Counted from the first letter of the stretch, positions 15,592-31,368 are shown. The stretch: 45,793 bases of DNA from Boseongicola sp. (GCA_013042105.1 JABDQU010000122.1:1-45793); one strand, 5' to 3'. Notes: generated by a model not told the origin, from the letters alone. Program-made: numbers and translations.

Positions 15592-15624
15592 CGAAACAGG
15601 CCAAGACGCAAAAAAGAGATGGCT

Positions 15625-16365: not shown

Positions 16366-16545
16366 ACTTCCCTATCTATTGCTTTCAATCAAATGTCCGC
16401 CGCAAATCGCTGGAACAGCAAAAAAAGACGCCATATTCTGGTGTAACGCGCCCTTATTCGCACCCTGGTTTTCGACGGCAAAATTTCGTTGGAAGTCACA
16501 TGCCAAATCCAGCAAGTTCGAAATGGAAAAACTAAGGCGACTCAC

Positions 16546-18639
16546 ATGAGCAAACAATCCGTTCGGCTGGGCGTCGACATTGGCGGCACATTTACTGACG
16601 TTGTTCTTGAAGTGAACAATGCGGCATTCTCAACCAAGGTTCTGACCACCTACATTGCCCCTGAGAACGCTATTCTCGAAGGATTGAAACAGGTCTGCGC
16701 CAAGGCCGGTATAACCCCGGGCGACATTGATCAGATCATTCACGGAACGACCCTTGCCACCAATGCCCTCATCGAACGGCGCGGTGCCAAAACGGCCTTC
16801 ATCACAACCGAAGGGTTTCGCGACGTCATCGAGATGCGCACCGAATCCCGGTTCGAGCAGTATGACCTGAACCTCACGCTACCCGAACCCCTGTTGCCCC
16901 GCCAAAGGCGCTACACGGTTCCCGGTCGGATCGATGCCACTGGCGCGGAATTGAAACCACTGGATCGCAAGGACGTCGAGGCGGTTGTCGAGACGATTTG
17001 CGCGGCCGGATATGAGAGCATCGCAGTCGGGCTCATCCATTCCTATCTGAACGATGCGCACGAAACGCTCGTGCGGGACGTCCTGAACGAGAAAATGCCC
17101 CAAGCCATGGTGTCGCTCTCTTGTGAGGTCTCGCCACAAATGCGCGAATACGAACGGTTCAACACCGTCGTGGCCAACGCCTATATCAAGCCTCTGATGA
17201 AGTCGTATCTGGATCGCCTCGAAGATAAACTGCGCGAACAAGGAGTCACTTGTCAGGTCTTTCTGATGCACTCTGGCGGCGGCATCATTTCAATCGAAAG
17301 CGCAGCCGAATTCCCTGTGCGCCTCCTTGAAAGCGGCCCTGCTGGTGGGGCGGTCTTCGCCGCCAACATCGCGGCGCGCTATGGGCTGGACAAAGTGCTG
17401 TCATTTGACATGGGCGGAACGACCGCAAAAATTTGCCTGATCAAAAACCAGACGCCAAAGACGTCCCGTGTCTTTGAAGTTGCACGCACATACCGGTTCA
17501 AGAAAGGATCGGGCATGCCAATCTCGATTCCGGTTATTGATATGGTCGAAATCGGTGCGGGCGGCGGCTCTCTGGCCCACGTTGATAACATGCACCAAAT
17601 CCGTGTCGGCCCTGAAAGCGCAGGCTCGGAACCCGGTCCAGCCTGCTACGCACGCGGCGGCACCAAACCGGCCGTCACAGATGCCGATCTGGTGCTCGGA
17701 CGGCTCGATCCAGACAACTTCGCGGGTGGCAGCATCAAACTCGATCCACGTGCCGCCACGAGCGCTCTCACTGGCACCGTAGGTGAGAAACTTGGCATGG
17801 ACGCCGAAACCTCGGCTTTCGGAATTGCCGAGGTCGTCGACGAGAATATGGCAAACGCCGCGCGGGTCCATGCGGTCGAAAACGGCGAAGACCTTTCGGA
17901 ATATACCATGATTGCTTTCGGCGGCGCTGCCCCGCTCCATGCCGGCCGTCTCTGCGAGAAGCTTGGCATTGACCGCCTTCTCGTCCCACCGGGCGCAGGC
18001 GTCGGCTCGGCGATCGGGTTCCTGCGCGCGCCGTTCAGTTTCGAAGCGAACCGCTCGGTCTACATGAAGCTTGCCAACTTCGACGCCCCCAAAATCGCGC
18101 ACCTTCTGCAAGACTTGCAACGCGAGGCCACGGCCTTTGTGCGCAACTGCGACCCCGACAGTCCGATCCTGTCCGAATTTAAGGTCTATATGCGCTACAC
18201 AGGCCAAGGCTGGGAAATCCCGATAACCCTGTCGCAAGAACAGGCCACGAACCCGGACCAGACCAGCTTTGAGCAGCGCTTCATCGAGGAATACGCAAAG
18301 CTCTTTGGCCGGTCCGTTTCGGGCATGGATATTGAAATCACGGTCTGGTCTGTAAATGCCATGACGCCGCCCGAACCCGTCGAAGCAATTGCTGACGTTA
18401 CCGCAACGGCACCCGCCGTCCCTCAAACCTCCCGAAGGCTGTTCGACCCGACACGTGCAGAATCGGTGACCGCCAGTGTCATCCTGCGCAAAGATATGAA
18501 GGAAGGCGGCTCAGCCAGCGGACCCGCGATCATCACCGAAGATGAGACGACCATCATCGTTCCTTCCAGCCGTATCGCCACCCGACAGGCGGATGGCTGC
18601 ATCGACCTAAGTCTGAAAGGAATGGCCCATGGGGACTGA
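16546..18639 (+). CDS. Hydantoinase A/oxoprolinase alpha subunit (ATP-dependent)
   Basis: DIGGTFTD, HGTTLATNA, ESGPAGG, DMGGTT, GPESAGSEPGPACY, AFGGAAPLH. Confidence 0.92.
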   Translation: MSKQSVRLGVDIGGTFTDVVLEVNNAAFSTKVLTTYIAPENAILEGLKQVCAKAGITPGDIDQIIHGTTLATNALIERRGAKTAFITTEGFRDVIEMRTESRFEQYDLNLTLPEPLLPRQRRYTVPGRIDATGAELKPLDRKDVEAVVETICAAGYESIAVGLIHSYLNDAHETLVRDVLNEKMPQAMVSLSCEVSPQMREYERFNTVVANAYIKPLMKSYLDRLEDKLREQGVTCQVFLMHSGGGIISIESAAEFPVRLLESGPAGGAVFAANIAARYGLDKVLSFDMGGTTAKICLIKNQTPKTSRVFEVARTYRFKKGSGMPISIPVIDMVEIGAGGGSLAHVDNMHQIRVGPESAGSEPGPACYARGGTKPAVTDADLVLGRLDPDNFAGGSIKLDPRAATSALTGTVGEKLGMDAETSAFGIAEVVDENMANAARVHAVENGEDLSEYTMIAFGGAAPLHAGRLCEKLGIDRLLVPPGAGVGSAIGFLRAPFSFEANRSVYMKLANFDAPKIAHLLQDLQREATAFVRNCDPDSPILSEFKVYMRYTGQGWEIPITLSQEQATNPDQTSFEQRFIEEYAKLFGRSVSGMDIEITVWSVNAMTPPEPVEAIADVTATAPAVPQTSRRLFDPTRAESVTASVILRKDMKEGGSASGPAIITEDETTIIVPSSRIATRQADGCIDLSLKGMAHGD

Positions 18640-20338
18640 CAGCAAAACCGTAGCCCACCAGGTTATGTGGAACCGGTTGATCTCGGTCGTGGAAGAACAG
18701 GCCCAGGCCCTGGTGCGCACAGCGTTCTCAACCTCTGTGCGCGAAGCGGGCGACCTGTCAGCCGGTGTCTACGACGTCCAGGGTCAGATGCTGGCACAGG
18801 CGGTCACCGGCACGCCGGGCCATGTGAATGCCATGGCCGACGCTGTTGCCCATTTCATCCGACCGATCGGACGCGACAACATCGCTGAAGGCGACGTCTA
18901 TATCACCAATGATCCTTGGGAAGGCACCGGACACCTTCACGATATCACGATGGTCACGCCGTCGTTTTTCCAAGGCACCCTTGTCGGCTTCTTTGCCTGC
19001 ACCGCCCATATCGTCGACATCGGCGGGCGCGGCTTTGGCGCAGACGCAGCCAGCGTCTATGAAGAGGGTCTCTATATTCCAATCATGAAATTCGCCGACA
19101 AAGGCACCGTCGACGAAACCCTCCTGCGTATTGTGCGCGGCAACGTGCGCGAGCCCGACCAGTTGATCGGCGATATCTATGCACTCGCCACCTGCAATGA
19201 GATCGGTCATCGCAGATTGATCGACATGATGATCGAGTTTGGTCTCGGCGATCTCAACGGCATCGCCGACTTCATCCTCGAAAACTCAAGGCGCGCAACG
19301 CTCGAACGTATCGCCGCCTTGCCCCGAGAGTCCGCAACGGGCGAGATGACAATCGATGGTTTTGATACGCCGATAACGCTGAAAGTCGAAGTCACGGTTC
19401 ACGAAGACCGCATCGTGACCAATTTCGACGGAACCTCCGGCGTCGACAAGAAGGGCATCAACTGCCCGCTCGTCTATACCAAGGCCTATGCTTGCTACGC
19501 CTTAAAGGTCGCGATTGCGCCCGAGATCCCAAACAACGCCGCTTCCCTTGCTCCCTTCGAGGTCGAAGCCCCGGCACACACCATCGTGAACGCCATCCAC
19601 CCTGCACCCGTCGCTTTGCGCCACATCGTTGGCCACTTCGTGCCTGACACGGTTTTCGCAGCCTTCGACAAGATCGTCCCCGGCCTCGTGCCTGCTGAAG
19701 GTGCCGGATGTCTGTGCAACTTTCAGGTGTCCCTGCGCCCCCGCACCGACGCCCCTGCCCCCGCTGACGCACTTCGCTCGGAAGTCCTGACATTCAACTC
19801 CGGCGGCTCCGGCGCACGCCCGGAATATGACGGTCTGAACGCAACCGCTTTTCCATCCGGGGTCATGACAATGCCGGTGGAAGCCACCGAACATGCCGGA
19901 CCGGTGATCATCTGGCGCAAGGAACTTCGCCCCGACAGCGGTGGTGCGGGCAAGCAGCGCGGTGGTCTTGGTCAATTCATGGAAGTTGGCGCACGCGAAG
20001 GCCATGAGTTTGACATCCAGGCGATGTTTGACCGCGTTGACCACCCGGCGCGCGGCCGACGCGGCGGCAAATCAGGCGCTTCAACCACAATCGCCCAGGA
20101 CGATGGCACCGCGATGCGCGGAAAAGGCAAACAATTCGTCCCGCATGGGCGCAAAGTGGTCATGGCCTTCCCCGGAGGCGCTGGCTACGGAACAGCCGGG
20201 GATCGCGATGTAAACGCGGTGAAAAGAGACCTCGCACGCGGATACATATCTGCGCAAACCGCGAAAACCGACTACGGACTGTCCACCGACCAGATCAAAG
20301 ATGTGCTGGCCGCCGCGCAAAAAGGCGACGATATTTAA
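18629..20338 (+). CDS. Hydantoinase B/oxoprolinase beta subunit
   Basis: RTAFSTSVREAGDLS, NDPWEGTGHLHD, HIVDIGG, DSGGAGKQRGG, PGGAGYG. Confidence 0.92.
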   Translation: MGTDSKTVAHQVMWNRLISVVEEQAQALVRTAFSTSVREAGDLSAGVYDVQGQMLAQAVTGTPGHVNAMADAVAHFIRPIGRDNIAEGDVYITNDPWEGTGHLHDITMVTPSFFQGTLVGFFACTAHIVDIGGRGFGADAASVYEEGLYIPIMKFADKGTVDETLLRIVRGNVREPDQLIGDIYALATCNEIGHRRLIDMMIEFGLGDLNGIADFILENSRRATLERIAALPRESATGEMTIDGFDTPITLKVEVTVHEDRIVTNFDGTSGVDKKGINCPLVYTKAYACYALKVAIAPEIPNNAASLAPFEVEAPAHTIVNAIHPAPVALRHIVGHFVPDTVFAAFDKIVPGLVPAEGAGCLCNFQVSLRPRTDAPAPADALRSEVLTFNSGGSGARPEYDGLNATAFPSGVMTMPVEATEHAGPVIIWRKELRPDSGGAGKQRGGLGQFMEVGAREGHEFDIQAMFDRVDHPARGRRGGKSGASTTIAQDDGTAMRGKGKQFVPHGRKVVMAFPGGAGYGTAGDRDVNAVKRDLARGYISAQTAKTDYGLSTDQIKDVLAAAQKGDDI

Positions 20339-20368: not shown

Positions 20369-21523
20369 TCAGCTTTGCGCCGCGATGGCCTTTGACGGAT
20401 CATAGAACGGCTTTGGAACCACGACAGCGCTACGCGATCCAAACTCGGTCTCAACAACAACACGATTGCCCACCTCAGCCTGATCCACGGCCACCATGGC
20501 CAGCGCGATATTTTTGCCCAACCGAGGCGAATGAACAGCCGAGGTCACATACCCGACCTGAGCCCCCTGCGACGAAATCACCCAAAACGTGTCGTTCGAT
20601 CCAACCAAAGCATCCCCATCCACTTCCAGACCGACAAAGCTTTGCGTCACACCTTGTTTCTTGATCGCCGCCAAGGCCGATTTGCCCACAAAATCAGCCT
20701 CAATCTCAAGGTTCACAAGTCGATCCATCCCCATCTCGTAAGGATTATTCGCAAGCGTCATGTCCGCGTGATAAGACAACATCCCAGCTTCAATGCGACG
20801 GATCGAAGACGTATGACCCGGCTTCAATCCAAGCGGCTGACCGACGGCCATAAGGTGTTCCCACAGCCGATCACCCGCAGACCCGTCACGCAGAAAAATC
20901 TCATACCCCAATTCACTGGACCAACCCGTTCGGGAAATGACAAGCGGCACACCCTCCCAGTCGTATTCCATGAACCAGTAATATTTCAGATCAGTCGGCG
21001 CATCGCCAAATGCCGCCCGCAAAACCTCGCGCGACTTTGGGCCCTGCAGCTGGAGAGGTGACACATCCGGCTCGCCAATCTGCACATCCATCCCGGCATG
21101 CAGCGCCACCCCCTTGGCCCAAAGCAGCACATCACTGTCTGCAATCGATAGCCAGAAATGATTGTCCGCAAGCTTGAGCAGAACCGGATCATTGATAATT
21201 GCGCCGTCCTGATCAGTGATCAAAACGTATTTGCACTGACCGACCTTCATTTTTGAAAGGTCCCGACAGCAAATGTATTGCGTGAACTTCGCAGCATCCG
21301 GACCGGTGATCTCAACTTGCCGCTCAACAGAGACATCACAAAGAATAGCCTCGTTCACGAGGTTCCAGAAATTCTGCACCGGATCGCCAAAATCGCGCGG
21401 GATATACATGTGGTTGTAAACGGAAAAGCCCATTGCCCCCCACCGCTGCGCGGCATCGGAAAAAGGCGATTTACGCACCTGCGTGCCAAAACTGAATTTC
21501 GAAAATGAAAGCGCTTCGTTCAT
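20369..21523 (-). CDS. GcvT-family THF-dependent methyltransferase, DmdA-like paralogue
   Basis: YNHM, DVSVERQVEITGPDA, NDPVLLKL, WLSIADSD and EPDVSPLQLQGP are shared with DmdA. GHTSSIRRIE replaces the DmdA GCPNxIERIE motif. Confidence 0.8.
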   Translation of the reverse strand: MNEALSFSKFSFGTQVRKSPFSDAAQRWGAMGFSVYNHMYIPRDFGDPVQNFWNLVNEAILCDVSVERQVEITGPDAAKFTQYICCRDLSKMKVGQCKYVLITDQDGAIINDPVLLKLADNHFWLSIADSDVLLWAKGVALHAGMDVQIGEPDVSPLQLQGPKSREVLRAAFGDAPTDLKYYWFMEYDWEGVPLVISRTGWSSELGYEIFLRDGSAGDRLWEHLMAVGQPLGLKPGHTSSIRRIEAGMLSYHADMTLANNPYEMGMDRLVNLEIEADFVGKSALAAIKKQGVTQSFVGLEVDGDALVGSNDTFWVISSQGAQVGYVTSAVHSPRLGKNIALAMVAVDQAEVGNRVVVETEFGSRSAVVVPKPFYDPSKAIAAQS

Positions 21524-21569
21524 TTTGCGTCCATGCTTCTCAGGTTTGAGGAACCGTCGGGTGACAAGT

Positions 21570-23183
21570 CTACCGAAACAGCTCGCGAAGTTCGTTTTTC
21601 CGGATTTTGCCGGTCGTTGTCTTTGGCAGGTCCTGAAAAATGACCTTCTTTGGTCTTTGATAGCCCGCCAGACGCGACCTTGCGTGCTCCAGAAGCGCCT
21701 CCTCCGTCACACGCGCCCCGGCCACAAGCTCGACGAATGCACAAGGCACTTCGCCCCACTTTTCGTCCGGCATCGCAACCACTGCCACAAGGCTCACGTC
21801 CGGGTGCGAATAAAGCGCTTTCTCGACCTCGATCGACGAAATGTTCTCGCCCCCCGAAATGATGATATCCTTCGCGCGGTCCCTGATTTCGACGTAGCCA
21901 TCAGGGTGCTGCACAGCAATGTCGCCAGACCAGAACCAACCGTCACGGAAGGCTTTCGCAGTCTCTTCAGGCTGTTTGAAATACCCCTTCATGACGATGT
22001 TGCCGCGAAAGACGATCTCACCTAGCGTTTCACCATCCCATGGGACGGGCTTGCCTGTGTCAGGGTCAAGAACCAACACATCTTCTTCAAGCTCGTAGGC
22101 CACGCCTTGTCGTGCGTTCAGGCGCGCCTGCTCTTCAAGTGGCAGGTTCAGCCAGTCCGGCTTTTTCGCGCAGACGACAGCCGGGCCATAAACCTCGGTC
22201 AAGCCATAGACATGGGTGATCGAAATGCCCATCTCCTCCATGCCTGCGATGACAGATGCCGGTGGCGGTGCCGCGGCGGTCATCATCTTGATATCTTGTG
22301 AGAAATTCCGCCGATCTTCCGGTGCCGCCCCCGAGATCATCGACATAATGATCGGCGCACCACACAAATGCGTCACGCCATGGTCCGCAAAGGCTGCGTA
22401 AATCGCGTCCGCCCGTGGTGCGCGCAAAAACACGTGGGTTCCCGCCAACATCGTGATCGTCCAGGGAAAGCACCAGCCATTGCAATGAAACAGTGGCAGC
22501 GTCCAAAGGTAGACCGGGAAATGCGGCATCTCCCAGGTCACCGTGTTGTTGACCGCATTTGTCCAGGCCCCACGGTGCGAATAAACTACGCCCTTAGGCC
22601 GCCCCGTCGTCCCCGACGTATAATTCAGCGCCAGTGCATCCCACTCGTCATCCGGCAAGACGTAAGCGAAATCAGGATCGCCTTCAGCCAGCAATGCGTC
22701 GTAGGTCAAAGCCCCGATCCGGTCGCCACCCGGCCCTTCCGGGTCCTCAATGTCAACGATCAGCAAATCCCGTTTCGACTGGCGCACAGCCTCCGCCGCC
22801 ATACCGGAAAACTCGGTGTCCACCAGCAGCACCTTCGCTTCGCCATGATCAAGAATGTAAGCAATCGTGCCCGCATCCAGTCGCACGTTGTTGGCGTTCA
22901 GCACCGCCCCCAAAAGCGGCAAAGCCAAAGCGCATTCCAAAGCTTCAGGAATGTTCGGCGCGATCAGAGCAACCGTATCGCCCTTGCCAATCCCACGAGC
23001 CTTCAGAGCCGACGCAAGCCGCTTGCACCGCTCTGCAACCTCGCCCCAATTGCGACGGATCGAGCCGTGAATCTGCGCGGGCAACTCGGGATGAACCCGC
23101 TCAACGCGCTTCAGAACCGAAACCGGCGACAGCGCCGTATGGTTGGCCGCGCACTTTTGCAGTTCGGGGCCGTCGAAGATCAT
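21570..23183 (-). CDS. Acyl-CoA synthetase (AMP-forming), DmdB1-like family
   Basis: YTSGTTGRPKG, LPLFHCNGWCF, YGLTE, DRAKDIIISGGENISS, PKTTTGK. Confidence 0.88.
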   Translation of the reverse strand: MIFDGPELQKCAANHTALSPVSVLKRVERVHPELPAQIHGSIRRNWGEVAERCKRLASALKARGIGKGDTVALIAPNIPEALECALALPLLGAVLNANNVRLDAGTIAYILDHGEAKVLLVDTEFSGMAAEAVRQSKRDLLIVDIEDPEGPGGDRIGALTYDALLAEGDPDFAYVLPDDEWDALALNYTSGTTGRPKGVVYSHRGAWTNAVNNTVTWEMPHFPVYLWTLPLFHCNGWCFPWTITMLAGTHVFLRAPRADAIYAAFADHGVTHLCGAPIIMSMISGAAPEDRRNFSQDIKMMTAAAPPPASVIAGMEEMGISITHVYGLTEVYGPAVVCAKKPDWLNLPLEEQARLNARQGVAYELEEDVLVLDPDTGKPVPWDGETLGEIVFRGNIVMKGYFKQPEETAKAFRDGWFWSGDIAVQHPDGYVEIRDRAKDIIISGGENISSIEVEKALYSHPDVSLVAVVAMPDEKWGEVPCAFVELVAGARVTEEALLEHARSRLAGYQRPKKVIFQDLPKTTTGKIRKNELRELFR

Positions 23184-23995
23184 TTGCCGGTCCAGTCGGG
23201 CATCGGCTCTTTGCGCGTAAACGCTCCGATCCCAGCCTCCGCATCGACGCCCATCATGTTCTCCGCCATCACGCGCCCGGCGAAAGCATAGGCCTCTTCA
23301 AGCGGCATTTCCGCCTGCTCATAAAACGCCCGCTTCCCGATCTTGATCGCCGCTGCCGGTTTGTCGGCAATGGTGCGCGCCATCTCCATGGTCTTTTGCT
23401 CAAGCCCATCACGCGGCACAACCGCGTTGATCAACCCAAAGTCCGCCACCCGCGCAGCCGGCAAAAACTCCCCGAGCAAAAGCATCTCCATCGCCTGTTT
23501 GCGCGGCACATTCCGGCTGAGCGCCACCATGGGCGTTGAACAAAACAGCCCGATATTCACCCCAGACGTCGCAAACCTCGTCTCTTCCGAGGCCACCGCC
23601 AGATCACAGGCCGCTACCAACTGGCACCCGGCCGCCGTCGCGATCCCTTTCACTTCTGCAATGACCGGCTGAGGCAAGCGGACAATCCGCAGCATCATCT
23701 CGGAACAAGTCGCAAAGAGGTCCTGAAAATACTGAAAGCCGCCGTCTGCATCCTGACGCCGCGCAGTCATTTCCTTCAGATTATGACCTGCGCAAAAGTG
23801 GTTACCAGCTGACCGCAGTATCACCGCTTTCACCGAACGGTCCTCCGCAATCTCATCAAACGCCGCGGATAACGCCGCCAGCATCTTCTCGGAAAGCGCA
23901 TTGATCGACTGCGGAGCGTTCAGCGTCAGAATGGTCACGCCAGCGTCGTCCTCGCGCAGCAGGATCGCTTCATCGCTCTGGGTCATATCGTTCAT
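23180..23995 (-). CDS. Enoyl-CoA hydratase/isomerase (ECHDC3-like subfamily)
   Basis: FCAGHNL, ATAAGCQLVAACDL, GVNIGLFCSTP. RBS AAGGGAG precedes ATG 23995. Confidence 0.9.
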   Translation of the reverse strand: MNDMTQSDEAILLREDDAGVTILTLNAPQSINALSEKMLAALSAAFDEIAEDRSVKAVILRSAGNHFCAGHNLKEMTARRQDADGGFQYFQDLFATCSEMMLRIVRLPQPVIAEVKGIATAAGCQLVAACDLAVASEETRFATSGVNIGLFCSTPMVALSRNVPRKQAMEMLLLGEFLPAARVADFGLINAVVPRDGLEQKTMEMARTIADKPAAAIKIGKRAFYEQAEMPLEEAYAFAGRVMAENMMGVDAEAGIGAFTRKEPMPDWTGK

Positions 23996-24065
23996 CTTGT
24001 CGCTCCCTTTCGCGATATACTTAGGCGTCTTTTCAACCGAACAAGCCCCACTCACGATCCGCCTG

Positions 24066-24530
24066 TCAAATCTTCAAATCAAGCCGAGGCTTCCAGAACG
24101 GCCTGAACAACTCGATCTTCGGACAGCGGTTCATCACAACCTGCAACCCGGCCGCTTCCGCCAGTTCAGCCGCCCGGTCATCATAAACCCCGATCTGTCC
24201 CCAAAGCACCTTGGCCCCGATCGCAATCGCCTGTTCAGCAATCCCGTAGAATTCTTCCTTGGGGCGAAACACCTCAACCATGTCCACAGGCCGGTCGATC
24301 TCTTCCAGCGAATGATACACCTTGATCCCGCGAATTTCGCTCAAATTCGGGTTCGGGTTCACCGGGATCATGTCATAGCCCGTCTCGTGCAGAACACGCA
24401 GAACGCCATAGCTGAATTTGGTCTTGTCCGCGCTTGCCCCCACCATCGCGATGGTCTTTACCGATTTCAGAATGCTGGCCAAGTATTTGGAATCGTAATC
24501 ATACAAGTCGTCCAATGCAGCGGCAGGCAT
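24066..24530 (-). CDS. CoA-binding protein (YccU family)
   Basis: TIAMVGAS, IPVNP, VDMVEVFR, LWGQIGV, VMNRCPKIE. Confidence 0.9.
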   Translation of the reverse strand: MPAAALDDLYDYDSKYLASILKSVKTIAMVGASADKTKFSYGVLRVLHETGYDMIPVNPNPNLSEIRGIKVYHSLEEIDRPVDMVEVFRPKEEFYGIAEQAIAIGAKVLWGQIGVYDDRAAELAEAAGLQVVMNRCPKIELFRPFWKPRLDLKI

Positions 24531-24533
24531 GGC

Positions 24534-24902
24534 TCAGACCTCCTTCGGCGTGGCGATATCCGCCTTAAGTTCATGGGGTTGCAAGGGATCCTTGAACGGA
24601 TTGCGATAAAGCCGGTCATGGCTTTCAACCCCGATCTCAATCGTGCAATCAGAGATGGGCCGCGCCACACAAAGCACAACATAACCATCCGAAATCTGGC
24701 GGTTATTCAAGGCAACCTGACGACGTTGATCGACCTGACCCTCGGTTAGCTTGGCCGCACATGTAATGCAGCCGCCATATTTGCACCCATAAGGCAGATC
24801 GACCCCTTGCTCGCGCAAAGTATCCAACAACGGACGCCGCGCATCGACCTCGAAAGTCGCACCCTCGCGGTTTGCAAGCGTTATGACCCGCGTCTCGCTC
24901 AC
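24534..24902 (-). CDS. Plant-type 2Fe-2S ferredoxin with C-terminal extension
   Basis: LPYGCKYGGCITC...VLCVARP. The GTG start at 24902 overlaps the SBP56 stop (GTGA). Confidence 0.88.
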   Translation of the reverse strand: MSETRVITLANREGATFEVDARRPLLDTLREQGVDLPYGCKYGGCITCAAKLTEGQVDQRRQVALNNRQISDGYVVLCVARPISDCTIEIGVESHDRLYRNPFKDPLQPHELKADIATPKEV

Positions 24903-26257
24903 AGCCAGATATCGCTCGTGCAATCCCCGCCCGGATAGCGCGTCTCGTGACAACGGCTCGGCCCGTTCGGCTCCTTACCAAAATCAACAATGAAATCCTC
25001 GTTGATCTTCATACCGCCATTTTCAACATCACAGTCAATCATCACCATGACCCCACCTTGCGTGCGGATCTCGGGGTAAAACTGGTTGTCCCACGTCGAG
25101 AAAAGCGAGGTCGTCACATAAAGCCGCTTGCCGTCCAGCGACAGCTGGAACATCTGCGGCCCGCCCGCCACCGGCACGCCATTCACTTCCGGTGCCTTGT
25201 TGAGCAATCCGCCCATCCACACCTGCCCTGTCAGCTTCGGATTATGCGGATCCGTGATGTCGTATTGGCGCATATCACCATGCAGCCAGTTGTTCAGATA
25301 GAGATACTTATCATCCATCGACACAAGGATCGCCGACATCACACCGGGAATTGGAATGGGCCATTCCGGATGCGGTTCATTCTCCACATCAATAATCTTC
25401 TCCCACTCCCATTTGCCCTCATCGGACTTCCAGAAATGGATCACATTCGCACTGAGCGCCGCCCCGCAGAACCCGTGCGTGCTGTCCGGGTCGTGGTGGA
25501 ACTTCACCTCCAGCGGGATCAATCCATCTTCGCCCAGATACATCGTCTCAATCGGCTCGCGCTTCTCAAAATCCCAAATGTGAAGACGTCGCCCGTATTT
25601 CAGATGCCCCACCTCTTCGAGATCAAACCCCGGCATAAACGTGTTCGGCGCAGCCCATTCCGACGACACCATCACGTTGTGGCGCGGCTGGTACCAGAAA
25701 TCATACCCGAACGGGATGTCCCCCATCGAGTTCTCCCAGCGTCCGATAATCTCGAAGTCCTTGTTCATATGGAGATACCCGCCGGGTGCCTCACCTTTTG
25801 CATCACCCAAAAACGAAATGATGATCTCAGAACCCAGACAATGCACCGTATGAGGTCCAGACAGATCCGCCTTCGCCTTGATCTCGGCCCCCTCAATCAC
25901 CTTATGCAAACGCGGCGCACGCGGGTCGGTCGCCGTATCAACCACGTGGATATTGTTCGACCGCACCCCTGGAACCAGCAGATACTTTCGCGACATCGAA
26001 CTGTCGTCATGACAGGACGAACAGGCATTCCACCCCATATGATGCAACTCGTCCCCAATGCCGGGCATTTCAAGACGGTGGATCACTTGTGAATACGTCG
26101 GGCTTTCAGGATCCGCATCAACGGTCGCAAGGTAATCCGGCTTTTGAATACCGGTGCCTGTGTAAATGGCGATCGTGTAAAGAAGCTTCTCTCGCGGAGC
26201 CTGAATGGCTTCAGCGGGACTCGCATAGCCCGGTCCGCAACACACCCCATCCATCAT
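24899..26257 (-). CDS. Selenium-binding protein SBP56/SELENBP1 family, probable methanethiol oxidase, cytoplasmic
   Basis: CGPGYASP, DELHHMGWNACSSC, GYDFWYQPRHNVMVSSEWAAP, NWLHGD, GGPQM, RYPGGDCTSDIW. No signal peptide. RBS GGAGG. Confidence 0.92.
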   Translation of the reverse strand: MMDGVCCGPGYASPAEAIQAPREKLLYTIAIYTGTGIQKPDYLATVDADPESPTYSQVIHRLEMPGIGDELHHMGWNACSSCHDDSSMSRKYLLVPGVRSNNIHVVDTATDPRAPRLHKVIEGAEIKAKADLSGPHTVHCLGSEIIISFLGDAKGEAPGGYLHMNKDFEIIGRWENSMGDIPFGYDFWYQPRHNVMVSSEWAAPNTFMPGFDLEEVGHLKYGRRLHIWDFEKREPIETMYLGEDGLIPLEVKFHHDPDSTHGFCGAALSANVIHFWKSDEGKWEWEKIIDVENEPHPEWPIPIPGVMSAILVSMDDKYLYLNNWLHGDMRQYDITDPHNPKLTGQVWMGGLLNKAPEVNGVPVAGGPQMFQLSLDGKRLYVTTSLFSTWDNQFYPEIRTQGGVMVMIDCDVENGGMKINEDFIVDFGKEPNGPSRCHETRYPGGDCTSDIWL

Positions 26258-26284
26258 CACGAACCTCCCTTGCGATGCGAACAG

Positions 26285-26305
26285 TAATCTCATAAATCGA
26301 GAATA
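26285..26305. promoter_or_regulatory. Candidate IclR operator in the 69-bp divergent promoter
   Basis: Imperfect palindrome TAATCTCATAAATCGAGAATA with a TCTC-N7-GAGA core. Confidence 0.4.
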
Positions 26306-26326
26306 GCAGTATCACAAGAGAATAAA

Positions 26327-27094
26327 ATGCACCTCGAACGCCTCACCATGATCCTAGAGATCATCGGTCAAAATGGAGAAGCCTCGGTGGCAGACATTGT
26401 CGCGCACTCCGACCTTCCCAAACCCTCTGCTTATCGCCTGGTCAAAGACCTTGCTGCAGTTGGGTTGATCGATCCCGTTTCCCGAGGCCACTTTGCAATC
26501 GGCAGTCGCCTGAAACAGATCGCTCTGACCGATCGCTCAGATGTTGCCCTGATCAGCCTTGCGGCCCCAATTCTGAAGCAAGCCGCAAACGAACACGGCG
26601 CGGCCTTCTTCCTGTCGAGACTGAAAGGTCAGGCTGTCGAAATCATCCACGTCGAGACCCCGCAAATCGGCGTTTCCTACCTTCATCCCGGCCTTGGCAA
26701 ACGCCCGCTCCATGCGTGTTCCTGCTCAAAAGCCGTCCTCGCATTCAACCCCTCACTGGAACCCGCCCAAGACCTTGCTGGCCGTCTCAAAGCCTATACC
26801 GACTTTACACTGACCGACGTGGCTGACCTCCACGCGGAGCTGGTGACTATCCGCGAACGCGGCTTCGCCGAATGCGTCGAAGAAATGGAACGCGGCATGT
26901 GCTCGGTTGCCTCACCACTTGGCAAAACCGGGTTTGGGGCAACGCTTTCAATCGGGGCAACCGGTTCGATGCGCGTTTTCACACCCGAATTTCGCGTGAA
27001 GATCGGAACGTATCTCACAGACTTAGCTACAAAAATCGCATTCACCACCGAAGGCACCGATGATAACACGCCGCAAAGGCAGTTGCGCTCGTGA
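26327..27094 (+). CDS. IclR family transcriptional regulator
   Basis: HTH LPKPSAYRLV, PLHACSCSKAVLAF, IRERGFA..EE.E.G..SVASP. Confidence 0.92.
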   Translation: MHLERLTMILEIIGQNGEASVADIVAHSDLPKPSAYRLVKDLAAVGLIDPVSRGHFAIGSRLKQIALTDRSDVALISLAAPILKQAANEHGAAFFLSRLKGQAVEIIHVETPQIGVSYLHPGLGKRPLHACSCSKAVLAFNPSLEPAQDLAGRLKAYTDFTLTDVADLHAELVTIRERGFAECVEEMERGMCSVASPLGKTGFGATLSIGATGSMRVFTPEFRVKIGTYLTDLATKIAFTTEGTDDNTPQRQLRS

Positions 27095-27132: not shown

Positions 27133-27924
27133 TTAAGTCAGCTTCTTGTGGACCTCAGGAACAAAGGTCTGGTCCCCCATTGGAGGGCGGACATAGCCAC
27201 GCTGCGCAGGTCGATCTTCCAACACAACCGGCGCGGGCTCAATGTCCTCGTATGGAATAAGAGACAGAAGATGGCTGATGCAATTCAGTCTCGCGTGCTT
27301 CTTCACATCCGAATCCACCACATACCAAGGCGCCTGCTTGATATCGGTGTGCGAGAACATGTCATCCTTGGCTTTCGAATAATCCACCCAACGCTTGCGG
27401 CTCTCCAAATCCATCGGGCTTAATTTCCACTGTTTCGTAGGGTCCGTCAGTCGTTTTTGGAAGCGGCGCTCCTGTTCCTCGTCACTTACGGAAAACCAGT
27501 ATTTGATCAATTGAATGCCCGAGCGAACCAACATGCGCTCAAACTCCGGACAACTGCGCATGAACTCTTTGTATTCCTCGTCGGTGCAAAACCCCATCAC
27601 CCGTTCGACGCCTGCGCGATTGTACCAGGACCGATCAAATATGATGATCTCGCCCGCCGCCGGCAGATGCGACACATAACGCTGAAAATACCACTGCGAC
27701 TTCTCGCGTTCGGTTGGCGCTGGCAAAGCAACGACCTGACATATGCGCGGGTTCATCGCCTCGGTTATGCGCTTGATCGTCCCCCCTTTACCCGCCGCAT
27801 CCCGGCCCTCGAAAATGATCGCAACGCGGTGGCCGGTCGCCTTGACCCACTCCTGCAACTTTACAAGTTCGATCTGCAATCGCGCCAGTTCAGCCTCATA
27901 GGCTGCATTCGTGATCTTCTTCAT
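27133..27924 (-). CDS. ppk2: Polyphosphate kinase 2 (class I-like)
   Basis: FEGRDAAGKGG Walker A, WYFQRY, FDRSWYNRAGVE, WKLSPMD. RBS GGAGGG precedes ATG 27924. Confidence 0.96.
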   Translation of the reverse strand: MKKITNAAYEAELARLQIELVKLQEWVKATGHRVAIIFEGRDAAGKGGTIKRITEAMNPRICQVVALPAPTEREKSQWYFQRYVSHLPAAGEIIIFDRSWYNRAGVERVMGFCTDEEYKEFMRSCPEFERMLVRSGIQLIKYWFSVSDEEQERRFQKRLTDPTKQWKLSPMDLESRKRWVDYSKAKDDMFSHTDIKQAPWYVVDSDVKKHARLNCISHLLSLIPYEDIEPAPVVLEDRPAQRGYVRPPMGDQTFVPEVHKKLT

Positions 27925-28010
27925 TTGCCACCCTCCCTGTGTTTTGTGTGTGCCATCAAACCATATTTCCGAGAAAATCACGACTTCAGCGCCAACTACG
28001 CAACGGCGCG

Positions 28011-28409
28011 CTAATCCCAACTGTCTTTCATGGCCCGCAAAGCATCGGCCCGACTTATCTGTCCGACAAGCCGGCCATCCTCAATGACCGGAAACCGCCG
28101 AAACGCGCTTTGCAGGAAGGCATTGGTTGCCGCAAAAATATCCAGTCCCGCCTCAAGTGTCTGCACATCACGCGACATATACGCCTCAACCCTGCCACCC
28201 CACGACCTGTAATAGCTCGCCTGCATCGCCGCCTTCAGACAGTCCTTCTTGGACAAAACGCCGACCAGCGTTCCGTCATCGGCCAGAACCGGCGCGCCGG
28301 AAATCCGGTTATCAAGCAGAATATTCATCGCGCGATTGATCTCGGTCTGCGGCGAGAGCGTGATCAACTCGCGCGTCATGTAATCTGAAACAAGTGCCAC
28401 ACGTTTCAT
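28011..28409 (-). CDS. Stand-alone CBS-pair protein
   Basis: DYMT...ISGAPV...LVGVLS and YMS...RRFPV..GRLVGQISRAD. The ATG overlaps the nqrM stop. Confidence 0.88.
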   Translation of the reverse strand: MKRVALVSDYMTRELITLSPQTEINRAMNILLDNRISGAPVLADDGTLVGVLSKKDCLKAAMQASYYRSWGGRVEAYMSRDVQTLEAGLDIFAATNAFLQSAFRRFPVIEDGRLVGQISRADALRAMKDSWD

Positions 28410-28576
28410 TTTGGCCCCTTCCCGCGACCAGCCTTGCAGACGCCGCAAGACAGACCCTTGTGGCAGGCCAGACCGCCACAACTGCCCTTGATCGGTGTCC
28501 GCCCTGCCAAAACGCCAACCGCAAGCCCTGCAATCGCAAGAAGCGAGACAACGAACGTCAGAATAATCGTTTCCAT
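28406..28576 (-). CDS. nqrM: Na+-NQR maturation factor NqrM (DUF539), 56 aa, absent from the ORF track
   Basis: Manual translation: METIILTFVVSLLAIAGLAVGVLAGRTPIKGSCGGLACHKGLSCGVCKAGRGKGPK. One TM helix, IKGSCGGL with Cys33, four Cys, RBS GAGGA, located directly after apbE. Confidence 0.9.
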   Translation of the reverse strand: METIILTFVVSLLAIAGLAVGVLAGRTPIKGSCGGLACHKGLSCGVCKAGRGKGPK

Positions 28577-28585
28577 TGGTTCCTC

Positions 28586-29548
28586 TCAGATCAGGACGTA
28601 ATCGGAAAACCGACCAGTCATAACATCGGACGTCTCATCACCATTTCGCACAATAAACAGAGCCGAAGCATTCAGCCGCCGTGCCAAAGCGATACCCTTC
28701 TCGACACCTGCCGCACAAAGCGCCGTGGCAAGCGCATCGGCTTCCTGTCCACTTGGCGCAAGCACCGAAACAGACGCCAGCGTCGTCGACGCCGGACGGC
28801 CCGACGTGGTGTCGATGATATGGCTTGTGCTGATCCTGCCACTTACACCATTGGCAGCATGCCCCGAAGTTGCCAAAGCCTGATCCCTCGGCGTCACCAG
28901 ACGATAGGGCTGGAAATCCAATGCGATCGGATCAGCCACCGCGCCAACCCATTCGCGCCCTCTGGGGTGGCGTCCCAGGACTTTTATTTCGCCACCGACC
29001 TCAATCATCGCGCTGTTTATGCCCTCGTCCACCAAAACCTCGGCCACCCGATCCAACGCATACCCTTTGGCAATCCCGCATAAATCCAAAGTCAAATCCG
29101 CCTCGCCCTTTCGCAAACCATCAGACGCAACCTCGATCTGTCGATACGACCCCAAGCCGCCCCTGATCGGCCCAAAACCAAACCGGGAAACAAGAGGTCC
29201 AACCGTTGGATCAAATGCGCCATCCGTCAGCCTTGCTATGCGCAAAGCCTCGCTGGTCACCGCACAAAGCTCCGGCGGCATCTCCGCAAACCCGACCCTG
29301 CGGATGGAATTGAAAACCGAAAGTGGCGATGTCGCGCGATAAGGCGACATTTGTTCATCGACCCGCCGAAATACAGCCTCCAGCTTCGGTCGCACGGCCG
29401 AAAGATCAACGATGCCACCGGCCGTGATGCGCCAACTTGATCCAAACGCAAGACCACCCTCGACCTGCAGGCCCTTTGCCCAGGCTTGCGTCGAACAAAG
29501 ACCCGCCCCGAGCAGCCCAAAGATCATCCCGCGTCGCGTCAAAACCAT
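28586..29548 (-). CDS. apbE: FAD:protein FMN transferase ApbE (Tat signal)
   Basis: TRRG Tat motif, GAFDPTVGPL, LDLCGIAKGY, EVGGE, LATSG, SHIID, ADALATA. Confidence 0.93.
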   Translation of the reverse strand: MVLTRRGMIFGLLGAGLCSTQAWAKGLQVEGGLAFGSSWRITAGGIVDLSAVRPKLEAVFRRVDEQMSPYRATSPLSVFNSIRRVGFAEMPPELCAVTSEALRIARLTDGAFDPTVGPLVSRFGFGPIRGGLGSYRQIEVASDGLRKGEADLTLDLCGIAKGYALDRVAEVLVDEGINSAMIEVGGEIKVLGRHPRGREWVGAVADPIALDFQPYRLVTPRDQALATSGHAANGVSGRISTSHIIDTTSGRPASTTLASVSVLAPSGQEADALATALCAAGVEKGIALARRLNASALFIVRNGDETSDVMTGRFSDYVLI

Positions 29549-29551
29549 CGG

Positions 29552-30772
29552 CTAAACTCCAAAATCATCGTTGTGAATGCTGTCCTCGTCCACGCCAAGG
29601 TCATCCAGCATCGACAGCACCGCACGGATCATCAACGGCGGCCCGCACAAATAATACTCACAGGCTTCCGGAGCCGGATGGTCCCCAAGATAGCGCTGCA
29701 AGGCGACTGCATGAACGAAGCCTACCGCGCCCGACCAGTTATCCGCGCCCTCCGGATCAGACAGTGCAACCGTCCAGTCGAAATTCGGGTGTGCAGCCTC
29801 CAGCGCATCGAACTCCTCGGCATAAAAGATATCCGCAGCACTGCGCGCACCATACCAGAAACTAATCCGGCGACCGGTCTTCTGGCGCTCCAACTGGTCA
29901 AAAATCATCGCCCTCAACGGGGCCATGCCAACGCCTCCACCAATGAAAACCATCTCGCGATCGGTATCTGATGCGCGAAACGTTCCGAAAGGCCCCGACA
30001 CCTTCACAGGATCACCTTCGCGCAGGGCAAACAACCACGAAGACACAATCCCCGGAGGCGCGTCCTTCACGGACGGCGGTGGCAGGGCGAGGCGGATATT
30101 GAGAACCAACCGTCCCGCCTCTGTGTCCTGCGGCCGATTAGAGATGGAATAAGCGCGCGTCACGTCCGTATCCGTCTCTACACTCAAACCCCGAAGCGGT
30201 GTCCACTCGTCCTGAAAGGCCTCCGGTATGTCGATATCCGTATACGCCAGCTCGAACGGAGGCGCAGTGATCTGCAAGAACGCACCGGCAACAACCTCGG
30301 GCCTGTTGCCCTCGGGAAGTTGCAGCACGATTTCCCGGATCAAAGGTGTGAGTTGCCGTGTCGATGCGACCTGAAGCATAAAAGCCTCTGCACCAAGCAA
30401 ATCCTCGTCAACGTTGACGTCCATATCGTTGCGCATCGTCACCTGACACGCCAAATGCGTGCCGTCGCGCAACTCAGCACGCGATAGCCGCGCAACCTCA
30501 ACCGGCAGAGCGTCCGGCCCCCCCTCCTCAATGCGCACCCGGCACAGACCGCAAGTTCCGGCACCAGCACAGGCAGACGGCACAAGAACGCCGTTGTCAT
30601 TCAACGCCGTCAGCAACTTCTGACCCGTCATGGCTTCAATCGTCTTGTGACCATTCACCGACAATCGCACCTGCCGCGCAGGCATCAAAAACGCCCTTGC
30701 GCCAATGACCAATCCGGTCAGCACACACACCAGCACGATCAGAAATACACTGCCCGAAAGGATATTGATCAC
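29552..30772 (-). CDS. nqrF: Na+-NQR subunit F (NADH dehydrogenase, 2Fe-2S/FAD)
   Basis: N-terminal [14 protein letters not shown]...[29 protein letters not shown]. Confidence 0.93.
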
Positions 30773-31368
30773 AAACCGATCCTCCCAAGTGCCGTAAACC
30801 CAATAGACATCAAACCGGTTACCAGAAACGCACTTCCCAGACCCTGCAAACCCTGTGGGATATCGCTGTATCTCAGACGCTCACGGATCGCCGCAAAAGC
30901 AACAATCGCCAAAGCCCAGCCAGCCCCGCTGCCGAACCCGAACACGACAGCCTCGGCGAAATCGTATTGGCGTTCCACCATGAAAAGACTGCCCCCAAGA
31001 ACGGCGCAATTCACGGTGATCAGAGGCAGGAAAATTCCCAAAGCGCGGTAGAGACGCGGGACAAATCGGTCAAGGAAAAGCTCAAGAATCTGCACCATCG
31101 CAGCAATCACGCCGATGAATGTGATCAGCTTCAGATAGCTCAGATCGACATCCGGCAGCCCCGCCCAACTCCAGGCACCTTCCAGCAGTATACTGTTGAA
31201 AATCAGATTGTTGACCGGCACCGTGATCGACTGAACGACGATAATCGCCAGCCCAAGCCCGAAAGCCGTCTCCAGACGCTCGGAAACCGCCAAAAACGTG
31301 CAAATCCCCAGAAACGAGGTAAGCGCAATGTTTTGATGAAAGATCGAGGCAACAAGAAGCTCTGTCAT
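30769..31368 (-). CDS. nqrE: Na+-NQR subunit E
   Basis: [37 protein letters not shown]. Start at ATG 31368. Confidence 0.93.

What the first reader, a model, noticed from the sequence alone, without database searches (positions are those of the whole stretch)
20369..27094. Candidate undescribed methyl-sulfur catabolic operon: SELENBP1, ferredoxin, CoA-binding protein, ECH, acyl-CoA ligase, DmdA-like demethylase, with divergent IclR
Seen: six co-directional genes with 4-bp overlaps or gaps of 3-70 bp, divergent from an IclR gene. Known: DMSP demethylation runs DmdA (THF demethylase), DmdB (CoA ligase), DmdC, then DmdD/AcuH (hydratase releasing methanethiol), and SBP56 proteins oxidise methanethiol. 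Inference: the operon has the same chemical logic but uses paralogous parts and lacks a DmdC acyl-CoA dehydrogenase. This suggests a different methylated S (or Se) carboxylate, possibly one that is already unsaturated, with the released thiol detoxified in the cytoplasm.
Basis: partly seen in the sequence, partly recalled or inferred. Interest (0 to 1): 0.82.

Follow-up and report, generated by a model that had tools for sequence, protein, structure and literature searches.

The report
Second sulfonium-to-methanethiol pathway with ECHDC3
A seven-gene cluster that recurs across marine bacteria joins a methanethiol-oxidase-type gene to an unstudied relative of the DMSP demethylase, a CoA ligase and a cysteine-bearing relative of the orphan human enzyme ECHDC3, and it likely strips a methyl group and then methanethiol from an algal sulfur compound other than DMSP (best guess dimethylsulfonioacetate) and would then oxidise the released gas.

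Summary
Observation confirmed: six co-directional genes and a divergent IclR. The cluster joins two conserved modules.

Module 1 (SBP56, ferredoxin, YccU-type CoA-binding protein) keeps every published copper ligand and cysteine of cytoplasmic methanethiol oxidases. This scan reported it before on other DNA (six earlier notes, one with the ECHDC3 gene).

Module 2 (DmdA paralogue, ECHDC3-type crotonase, PRK08162 ligase) recurs in a second layout (Lrp, OsmC). There it sometimes sits beside a different methanethiol-oxidase subclade.

All six genes co-occur in 15 of 80 paralogue loci. The genome also holds canonical dmdA, dmdB and dmdD.

The 'hydratase' lacks both DmdD glutamates and has an invariant Cys152 (183/183). 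acuI and dmdD lie in 0 of 135 paralogue loci. So 'hydratase on an unsaturated substrate' is unlikely.

Best guess: a sulfonium acetate is demethylated to tetrahydrofolate and CoA-activated; Cys152 then cleaves the thioether reductively, and the methanethiol is oxidised. Odds: about 0.8 for a methanethiol-releasing route, about 0.4 for this exact chemistry. No expression or enzyme data. Ten paper searches found no description.

The parts
26327..27094 (+). IclR-family regulator, divergent
   Evidence: PF09339 + PF01614; within the fetched stretch in 15 of 34 SBP56-centred loci at >=42% identity
26287..26314 (.). Candidate IclR operator in the 69-bp intergenic gap (repeated YGAKA / TMTCR half-sites, core TCR-N3-TAYGA at 26290-26300)
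   Evidence: core motif in 23 of 26 intergenic regions whose IclR is >=55% identical, shuffles mean 0.27, max 2; 1 of 14 for the other IclR subgroup; motif defined post hoc from these regions
24899..26257 (-). SELENBP1-type ('cluster 1') methanethiol oxidase, SBP56; no leader peptide evident
   Evidence: PF05694 691 bits; GWNACS, HTVHC, GGDCT motifs and H72/H73, H136/H139, D186, E250, C79, C140, C446 match the RdMTO residues of PMC10936201 and PMC13603461 with a 2-3 residue offset; only SBP56 found in the genome
24534..24902 (-). Plant-type [2Fe-2S] ferredoxin, 4-bp overlap with SBP56
   Evidence: TIGR02008 above cut-off; beside this SBP56 subclade in 33 of 34 loci; fused to the CoA-binding protein in L035
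24066..24530 (-). YccU-type CoA-binding protein with invariant Cys136; likely thiol carrier or resolver
   Evidence: PF13380; PDB 2DUW, 2D59 relatives; Cys motif in 82 of 82 sequences; 34 of 34 SBP56 loci; fused to MetY in Thermomicrobium
23180..23995 (-). ECHDC3/PRK08139-type crotonase without catalytic glutamates, invariant H71, Q125, G145, C152; predicted C-S cleaving enzyme
   Evidence: PRK08139 above cut-off; best PDB hits 3MYB and human ECHDC3 2VX2; invariants in 183 of 183 sequences; DmdD E121/E141 map to Q125/G145
21570..23183 (-). PRK08162-family short-chain acyl-CoA ligase (DmdB-like)
   Evidence: 827 bits, cut-off 677; 51% identical to the ligase of the P. inhibens dmdC-dmdD-ligase-dmdA cluster, which scores in the same family
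20369..21523 (-). DmdA paralogue ('non-DmdA' clade), predicted THF-dependent sulfonium demethylase
   Evidence: 376 bits, below the DmdA cut-off of 410; nearest structure DmdA 3TFH, E 3e-79; 37% identical to the genome's own DmdA on C75; clade-fixed substitutions

Best explanation
The cluster joins a SELENBP1-type oxidase module to a DmdA-paralogue, ligase and glutamate-less crotonase module, and likely works as a second, DmdC-independent route in which a dimethylsulfonium carboxylate other than DMSP (best guess dimethylsulfonioacetate, DMSA) would be demethylated, CoA-activated and cleaved to methanethiol that the oxidase is predicted to destroy.

Steps:
(1) The DmdA paralogue moves one S-methyl group to THF, giving 5-methyl-THF and methylthioacetate (inferred).
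(2) The PRK08162 ligase makes methylthioacetyl-CoA (family activity known; substrate inferred).
(3) The crotonase cannot hydrate in the classical way (shown: no glutamates). Its invariant Cys152 would attack the thioether sulfur, releasing the acetyl-CoA enolate into the oxyanion hole and leaving enzyme-S-S-CH3. This is inferred, by recalled analogy to 2-ketopropyl-CoM oxidoreductase/carboxylase and omega-class GST S-phenacylglutathione reductase.
(4) A small Cys protein would resolve the disulfide and free methanethiol: the YccU-type protein, perhaps re-reduced through the ferredoxin, here, and OsmC in the second layout (inferred).
(5) Cu-SBP56 oxidises methanethiol to formaldehyde plus sulfide or sulfane sulfur (shown for relatives, predicted here). 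Rhodanese and persulfide dioxygenase genes are present in many copies.
(6) IclR likely controls the operon through the conserved intergenic motif.

I put about 0.8 on 'methylsulfur compound to methanethiol to oxidation' and about 0.4 on this exact substrate and chemistry.
For: Sulfur link, repeated independently:
- SBP56 carries all published catalytic residues.
- Rhodanese in 17 of 80 and MBL/PDO-like in 6 of 80 paralogue loci.
- The second layout, Lrp-DmdA paralogue-OsmC-ECH-ligase (40 loci: Lrp 28, ECH 19, OsmC 18, ligase 16), runs into a different, ~41%-identical SBP56 subclade in 3 of 42 loci and on a Loktanella plasmid. That subclade has the cysteine spacing of the assayed RlMTO.
- 32 of 49 family genomes with the paralogue hold a cytoplasmic SBP56, against 60 of 251 without it (kin not independent).
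- ECHDC3-type genes elsewhere sit with the same CoA-binding protein (14 of 40 loci) and with MetY (7 of 40). In Thermomicrobium the order is PRK08162 ligase, MetY::CoA-binding fusion, ECHDC3-type.

Different substrate:
- The genome has dmdA, a dmdB-type ligase, dmdD, dmdEF-like and DmdC-like genes elsewhere.
- The clade fixes S203-E204-L205, H237-T238-S239 and R242 where DmdA has K-Q-G, C-P-N and E.
- E204, H237 and R242 are shared with a haloarchaeal homologue in a MetF / FAD-oxidoreductase / Rieske cluster.
- BCCT transporter in 4 and MetF C-terminal gene in 3 of 135 loci.

Reductive rather than eliminative or hydrative chemistry:
- No acid at either crotonase site, and C152 in 183 of 183.
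- acuI and dmdD in 0 of 135 loci.
- 47 of 55 module ECH copies have a Cys-invariant small protein just upstream, OsmC (22) or CoA-binding (25), never both.
- A GST pair precedes ligase-ECH in Burkholderia YI23.
- ECH trimer plus CoA-binding protein: weak support, score 0.37 against best control 0.00, runs agree in >=46% of contacts, partner pLDDT >=80. The mark was reached by 116 of 157 solved and 2 of 215 mismatched pairs, but at <=0.60 by 18 of 157 and both mismatches.
- PMC7221440 calls for an unrecognised DMSA demethylation/demethiolation pathway and notes that DmdA does not accept DMSA.
Against: - No expression, genetic or enzyme data; the substrate is a guess.
- The modules are separable: 38 of 80 paralogue loci have none of the five partners, and only 6 of 34 SBP56-centred loci have the paralogue clade within about 9 kb.
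- The ECHDC3-type gene is near-core in the family (260 of 301 genomes), usually beside rplM/rpsI (13 of 14).
- Among 42 distant metagenomic ECHDC3 loci none had MetY or the ligase and only 6 had the CoA-binding gene.
- The published DMSA-to-methanethiol activity is in R. pomeroyi DSS-3. Its two DmdA-family sequences in the PMC7487153 alignment are canonical DmdA and a different paralogue clade, so that activity does not trace to this demethylase.
- No dedicated transporter is conserved.
- The position of Cys152 relative to the substrate was not modelled (one search failed).
- The 135 loci include a few places fetched twice.
Confidence: 0.4

Rival explanations
1. C3 shortcut: the paralogue demethylates DMSP (or a homologue) to MMPA, the ligase makes MMPA-CoA, and the crotonase eliminates methanethiol directly to give acryloyl-CoA, bypassing DmdC and DmdD.
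For: Explains the lack of DmdC (remote acyl-CoA dehydrogenases in only 5 of 135 loci). The ligase family is the one in canonical dmd clusters. DMSP is the abundant sulfonium. H71 or C152 could act as base.
Against: No acuI in 0 of 135 paralogue loci, whereas it follows canonical dmdA in L146 and L166, and no AcuI-family gene over cut-off in this 84%-complete genome. The E164-type base is Gly. It does not explain the OsmC or CoA-binding Cys partners. The genome already has the canonical route.
Confidence: 0.17
2. One reading: the product is an unsaturated methylthio-acyl-CoA (from an unsaturated sulfonium, or through an unlinked DmdC), and the crotonase frees methanethiol by addition-elimination, perhaps through a covalent Cys152 adduct.
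For: DmdC-like genes exist elsewhere in the genome (41-44% identity, C102 and C103). A nucleophilic Cys can add to an enoyl-CoA (general chemistry). No dehydrogenase in the cluster.
Against: Both hydratase glutamates are absent. A true dmdD is already present (C141, 75%). A different DmdA paralogue clade is the one that clusters with dmdC and dmdD (Marivivens).
Confidence: 0.12
3. Loose island: a methanethiol-oxidase module and an unrelated one-carbon/acyl-CoA module were brought together on mobile DNA. The paralogue demethylates an N-methyl betaine, and the crotonase is a general or non-catalytic acyl-CoA protein.
For: The modules occur apart more often than together. Plasmid copies lie beside relaxase or integrase genes. 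The TGxxxELG motif matches GcvT/TMAO-demethylase-type proteins. The haloarchaeal relative lies in a betaine-like cluster.
Against: Two separate paralogue subclades each travel with their own dedicated crotonase clade (25 of 28 and 22 of 24 sequences in clades of 27 and 23) and each is linked to a different SBP56 subclade. Translational coupling is tight. Invariant H71 and C152 argue for catalysis.
Confidence: 0.16
4. Amino-acid route: the paralogue demethylates S-methylmethionine (or a related amino-acid sulfonium); after transamination and decarboxylation the methylthio acid enters the ligase and crotonase steps.
For: An Lrp/AsnC regulator in 28 of 40 second-layout loci. An invariant new Glu204 could bind an amine. 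A 56%-identical relative in Lichenihabitans lies with an aminotransferase, MetF, PurU, FolD and amino-acid ABC genes.
Against: No conserved aminotransferase, 2-oxoacid dehydrogenase or methionine lyase among recurrent neighbours.
Confidence: 0.1

Closest known systems
DMSP demethylation/demethiolation pathway DmdA-DmdB-DmdC-DmdD/AcuH with MtoX (Ruegeria pomeroyi, Pelagibacter)
   Same: GcvT-fold demethylase nearest to DmdA (3TFH), same ligase family as in dmd clusters, a crotonase-fold last step, and methanethiol handed to an SBP56 oxidase.
   Different: The demethylase is below the DmdA cut-off with fixed active-loop changes. No DmdC, DmdD or AcuI. The crotonase has no catalytic Glu. The oxidase is the cytoplasmic type with ferredoxin and a CoA-binding protein. 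Regulator is IclR or Lrp, not DmdR.
'Cluster 1' methanethiol oxidases RdMTO and RlMTO (PMC10936201, PMC13603461) and human SELENBP1
   Same: Three Cys motifs and six copper ligands conserved; no leader; no mauG/sco1 beside it.
   Different: By cysteine spacing RdMTO matches a ~67%-identical subclade and RlMTO the ~41% subclade; the window's >=80% subclade appears unassayed. The text I read gives no gene neighbourhood.
Human ECHDC3 (PDB 2VX2) / PRK08139 crotonases
   Same: AAGCQL and GLFCSTP motifs and His71 shared; PRK08139 above cut-off.
   Different: The window copy belongs to a dedicated clade tied to the ligase and demethylase, apart from the rplM-linked housekeeping copies. No reaction for the family turned up.
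'non-DmdA' paralogues of Hernandez et al. 2020 (PMC7487153)
   Same: The clade is in their alignment (e.g. ABF63906.1, AGI71500.1, AFS47213.1, ADE39159.1 carry the same motifs).
   Different: Treated there as phylogenetic outgroup; the passages read give no function or neighbourhood.
2-ketopropyl-CoM oxidoreductase/carboxylase and omega-class GST S-phenacylglutathione reductase (recalled)
   Same: Proposed chemistry: a Cys thiolate attacks a thioether sulfur alpha to a carbonyl, releasing an enolate and forming a mixed disulfide.
   Different: Unrelated folds; a works-like analogy only, not tested by any search.

Membership tests
DmdA (DMSP demethylase) | Score above NF009133 equivalog cut-off (410) | tested here: not met
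   376.4 bits; the C75 gene scores 670
DmdA (DMSP demethylase) | DmdA-specific loop residues (K-Q-G, C-P-N, E, G-N) | tested here: not met
   replaced throughout the 129-sequence clade versus 6 canonical sequences
DmdA/GcvT folate-binding fold | GCV_T domains and residues shared with DmdA 3TFH (Y36, E67, Y99, N111-D112, S126, W201, E208) | tested here: met
   the DmdA Y206 position is Phe in all 74 window-type sequences; the roles of these residues are recalled (the structure paper is not held)
DmdA (DMSP demethylase) | DMSP + THF gives MMPA + 5-methyl-THF | not testable with these tools
   needs enzyme assay
DmdD / AcuH / classical enoyl-CoA hydratase | Two catalytic glutamates (DmdD E121, E141) | tested here: not met
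   Q125 and G145 in 183 of 183 family members; 26% identity to P. inhibens DmdD
ECHDC3 / PRK08139 | NF006008 above cut-off and shared motifs with 2VX2 | tested here: met
   393.5 vs 313; alignment to 2VX2, E 2e-58
MtoX (periplasmic TTQ methanethiol oxidase) | NF052453 cut-off 650; signal peptide; mauG and sco1 neighbours (PMC5739008) | tested here: not met
   159 bits; conserved CCGPGY motif starts at residue 6, leaving no room for a leader (no predictor run); no mauG/sco among recurrent neighbours
'Cluster 1' SELENBP1-type methanethiol oxidase | GWNACS, HT[VI]HC, GGDC[ST] motifs and six Cu ligands | tested here: met
   against PMC10936201 and PMC13603461
'Cluster 1' SELENBP1-type methanethiol oxidase | Cu-dependent methanethiol oxidation | not testable with these tools
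   shown only for RdMTO, RlMTO and SELENBP1
DmdB (MMPA-CoA ligase) | NF005426 3-(methylthio)propionyl-CoA ligase cut-off 822 | tested here: not met
   299 bits; the ligase of a canonical dmd cluster also fails it (314 bits), so the model misses this branch
DmdB (MMPA-CoA ligase) | Same family (PRK08162) as ligases in canonical dmdA clusters | tested here: met
   827 and 774 bits vs 677; 49-51% identity, lower than the 62-67% among dmd-cluster ligases

The most novel reading that the evidence does not exclude
ECHDC3-type crotonases are reductive thioether-cleaving enzymes that release methanethiol from methylthioacetyl-CoA through an enzyme mixed disulfide, resolved by YccU- or OsmC-type Cys proteins. 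With the DmdA paralogue they form the missing DMSA demethylation/demethiolation pathway in roseobacter, SAR116, SAR11-type and other marine bacteria. The same chemistry would feed MetY in rhizobia and Thermomicrobium and give human mitochondrial ECHDC3 a role upstream of SELENBP1.
Probability: 0.25. Interest if true: 0.9.

Novelty: new variant of a known kind. Interest (0 to 1): 0.68.

Why it matters
Methanethiol is a main fate of marine organic sulfur, and surveys treat dmdA-dmdBCD as its source. This paralogue clade is common (49 of 300 sampled family genomes; present in the SAR11, SAR116 and Thioglobus set of PMC7487153) and is sometimes annotated as DmdA, yet has no function. The cluster gives it a concrete pathway and names candidate genes for a route that PMC7221440 says is missing. 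It also ties two orphan families, ECHDC3/PRK08139 (with a human member) and YccU, to thiol metabolism by repeated gene linkage. A three-protein assay can test all of this, and a cultured host with a plasmid copy (P. inhibens P30) exists.

Tried and rejected
- RNA runs: no RNA holder listed; no evidence either way.
- Promoter scan: no sigma-70 consensus site, and terminator-like hits below shuffle level (4 vs 8.3); uninformative.
- Single-sequence fold of the crotonase failed (pLDDT 42); not used.
- The idea that the window SBP56 is the direct orthologue of RdMTO: rejected, its spacing fits the ~67% subclade better.
- The cluster as a stand-in for a missing canonical pathway: rejected, dmdA, the dmdB-type ligase, dmdD and dmdEF-like genes are on C75 and C141.
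- MMPA-to-3-mercaptopropionate second demethylation: set aside, since redox-neutral methyl transfer from a neutral thioether to THF is unfavourable (own knowledge) and would not need a methanethiol oxidase.
- Gonyol: would need a hydroxyacyl-CoA dehydrogenase and a thiolase, not among recurrent neighbours.
- Selenium: no in-frame TGA in the seven genes, and no selenium gene among recurrent neighbours.
- Flanking oxoprolinase/DAO/TauE and nqr/ppk2 genes: not conserved with the cluster (HydA at >=45% in 1 of 80 loci).
- Three papers were not held (Schuller 2012 DmdA structure, Gonzalez 2019, Reisch 2011), so DmdA substrate-contact residues could not be checked.
- Searches that showed no description of the cluster or of an ECHDC3 reaction. 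The library lacks most subscription papers.


Full report
**Observation.** The six minus-strand ORFs and the divergent IclR are present and intact, with gaps of -4, 3, 70, -4 and 46 bp. Family scans give SBP56, a plant-type ferredoxin, a CoA_binding_2 (YccU-type; name recalled) protein, a PRK08139 crotonase, a PRK08162 ligase and a GcvT-fold protein nearest to DmdA but under its cut-off (376 vs 410 bits). GC content is close to the genome (0.56 vs 0.58). The host is an 84%-complete genome whose closest plasmid matches are Roseobacteraceae. It also holds canonical dmdA (670 bits, C75) behind a PRK08162-type ligase, dmdD (75% to P. inhibens DmdD), dmdEF-like genes and a GntR gene on C141, and DmdC-like genes on C102 and C103 (dmdEF as defined in passages of PMC12992908). 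So the cluster is an addition to the DMSP route, not a replacement.

**Conservation and modularity.** A GTDB scan with the paralogue found 558 encoding stretches and kept the best 80. In these, the CoA-binding gene occurs in 33, ferredoxin 31, SBP56 30, IclR 29, crotonase 27, ligase 22, rhodanese 17 and an MBL protein of the persulfide-dioxygenase type 6. All six genes occur together in 15, and none of the five partners in 38 (some contigs are short). From the SBP56 side, 36 of 300 family genomes carry the >=80% subclade. In 34 fetched loci from 33 of them (three fragmented ones left out), the CoA-binding gene follows in 34 and ferredoxin in 33, but the paralogue clade in only 6. The paralogue clade (>=61% identity) is in 49 of 300 genomes. 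In 40 of these loci a second layout dominates: Lrp 28, crotonase 19 (two not adjacent), OsmC 18, ligase 16, SBP56 1. This layout runs straight into a different SBP56 subclade (~41% identity) in 3 of 42 fetched loci and on a Loktanella plasmid. At genome level 32 of 49 paralogue carriers have a cytoplasmic SBP56 against 60 of 251 others (kin inflate this). Both layouts occur on plasmids. A motif TCR-N3-TAYGA lies in 23 of 26 IclR-SBP56 gaps of the window's IclR subgroup (shuffle mean 0.27; 1 of 14 in the other subgroup), a candidate operator defined post hoc.

**The oxidase.** PMC10936201 (abstract and parts 1-3 of 6 read) defines 'cluster 1' oxidases by three Cys motifs and assays RdMTO and RlMTO. 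PMC13603461 (parts 1-2 of 6 read) lists six copper ligands and shows Cu-dependent activity. The two papers disagree on sulfane sulfur versus H2S plus H2O2 as product. The window protein has all nine residues. By Cys spacing, RlMTO matches the ~41% subclade exactly and RdMTO fits a ~67% subclade best. It is not MtoX (159 vs 650 bits; PMC5739008 passages). Methanethiol oxidation is thus a strong prediction, not a result.

**The crotonase.** Its best structures are 3MYB and human ECHDC3, 2VX2. The DmdD glutamates (E121, seen mutated in 4IZC, and E141) align with Q125 and G145. PMC5395565 (passages) notes that DmdD keeps the classical glutamates. Across 183 distinct family sequences H71, Q125, G145, C152 and P155 never vary. 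The family is near-core (260 of 301 family genomes), mostly beside rplM/rpsI (13 of 14). The module copies form two dedicated clades. Outside the module the gene keeps company with the same CoA-binding protein and with MetY, the enzyme that captures methanethiol into methionine (role from own knowledge). Examples: S. meliloti PaaI, ECH, CoA-binding, MetY; 14 and 7 of 40 hand-spread Pseudomonadota loci out of 72 matches; and Thermomicrobium roseum ligase, MetY::CoA-binding fusion, ECH. Against a universal link: of 42 more distant metagenomic loci of at least 5 kb (of 80 returned; the Thermomicrobium-like ones left out), none had MetY or the ligase and 6 had the CoA-binding gene, and several plasmid copies had unrelated neighbours.

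**Choosing a mechanism.** Without DmdC the thioether must break by elimination, by addition-elimination, or reductively. Elimination from MMPA-CoA gives toxic acryloyl-CoA, yet acuI is in 0 of 135 paralogue loci, and the usual alpha-proton base is Gly. The AcuI query was taken from a canonical dmdA locus and named by context; the 135 loci include a few repeats. dmdD is likewise in 0 of 135, and remote acyl-CoA dehydrogenases in 5, one of them co-directional. What does recur is a small Cys protein directly upstream of the crotonase: OsmC in 22 and the CoA-binding protein in 25 of 55 copies, never both, with Cys motifs in 25 of 25 and 82 of 82 sequences. A GST pair precedes ligase-ECH in Burkholderia YI23. 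A predicted complex of crotonase trimer and CoA-binding protein gave weak support: 0.37 against 0.00 for the best control, runs agreeing in at least 46% of contacts, partner pLDDT at least 80. The mark was reached by 116 of 157 solved and 2 of 215 mismatched pairs, but at 0.60 or under by 18 of 157 and both mismatches. This pattern fits reductive cleavage of an alpha-thioether: Cys152 takes the methylthio group and the oxyanion hole stabilises the acetyl-CoA enolate. That requires a two-carbon acid, methylthioacetate, the demethylation product of DMSA.

**The demethylase and ligase.** The paralogue clade keeps the residues shared with 3TFH but fixes changes in three loops. Three of these changes are shared with a haloarchaeal homologue in a MetF / FAD-oxidoreductase / Rieske cluster that resembles betaine catabolism. 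BCCT transporters (4 loci) and MetF C-terminal genes (3 loci) nearby fit a betaine-like substrate and a methyl-THF product. PMC7221440 (passages) found DMSA in 11 of 16 algae and calls for an unrecognised demethylation/demethiolation route. R. pomeroyi DmdB1 works best on butyrate (table in PMC5395565), which is isosteric with methylthioacetate; that DmdB1 is a PRK08162 member is recalled, not tested. A counterpoint: the strain that made methanethiol from DMSA, DSS-3, shows only canonical DmdA and another paralogue clade in the PMC7487153 alignment (supplement S10, part 1 of 3 read, plus a search that skipped 12 of 23 files; AAV94935.1 assigned to DSS-3 from the accession series and recall). 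Methylthioacetaldehyde from the DHAP shunt (PMC13474568 passages) is a possible internal source for housekeeping copies.

**Comparison and novelty.** The cluster works like DMSP demethylation coupled to methanethiol oxidation, but fails membership in DmdA, DmdD/AcuH and MtoX. The oxidase type is published, and the paralogue clade appears as unannotated 'non-DmdA'. PMC7157515 and PMC12262181 (passages) mention such SBP56 genes without neighbours. Ten full-text searches gave no paper on this cluster or on an ECHDC3 reaction; subscription papers and unseen supplements may bear on this. Six earlier notes of this scan describe the SBP56-ferredoxin-CoA core, one with the ECHDC3-like gene. What this analysis adds is the demethylase-ligase-crotonase module, its second layout, the missing glutamates, the exclusive Cys partners and the MetY link.

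**Verdict.** Real, conserved and apparently undescribed as a pathway; a new variant of a known kind. About 0.8 for a methanethiol-releasing and -oxidising route, 0.4 for the DMSA/reductive mechanism. Interest 0.68.

Noticed in passing
L174:7977-13136 (Marivivens sp. LCG002 plasmid): A different DmdA paralogue clade (360 bits, under the DmdA cut-off; motifs like AAV94935.1) heads an operon with ligase, acyl-CoA dehydrogenase and dmdD, suggesting a third demethylase that yields an MMPA-like C3 product.
   Followed up: partly
L241:2228-6795 (Thermomicrobium roseum plasmid): PRK08162 ligase, MetY fused to a CoA_binding_2 domain, and an ECHDC3-type crotonase in a row: a candidate methylthio-acid-to-methionine salvage unit.
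   Followed up: partly
L035:1539-2414: Ferredoxin and CoA-binding protein are fused in one open frame in an uncultured Thiotrichales contig.
   Followed up: partly
L239:3202-8998 and L330-L361: Alphaproteobacterial housekeeping locus rpsI-rplM-PaaI divergent from ECHDC3-type, CoA-binding and MetY genes.
   Followed up: partly
L224:6491-14001: ECHDC3-type gene next to a YeeE/YedE sulfur transporter and genes that look like the sox cluster (sox names recalled, not scanned).
   Followed up: no
L219:4002-7289 and L221:2991-7510: ECH-ligase pair close to the window's type, without demethylase or SBP56, converging on a BKACE (beta-keto acid cleavage) gene.
   Followed up: no
L061:7443-11122: Two tandem copies of the DmdA paralogue (67% each to the window protein) near a BCCT transporter, Lrp, OsmC and ECH in Marinobacterium ramblicola.
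   Followed up: no
window 14119-20338: FAD-dependent oxidase, TauE-family exporter and a hydantoinase/oxoprolinase A-B pair converge on the cluster end; not conserved with it.
   Followed up: partly
window 27133-34857: ppk2, a CBS-domain gene and what look like an ApbE gene and nqr operon follow the IclR (nqr/ApbE names from the translations, not scanned).
   Followed up: no
G000 C141:1-3833 and C75:7909-10288: Canonical DMSP locus split over two contigs: GntR and dmdD divergent from dmdE/dmdF-like genes, dmdB-type ligase and dmdA; no acuI found with the queries used.
   Followed up: partly
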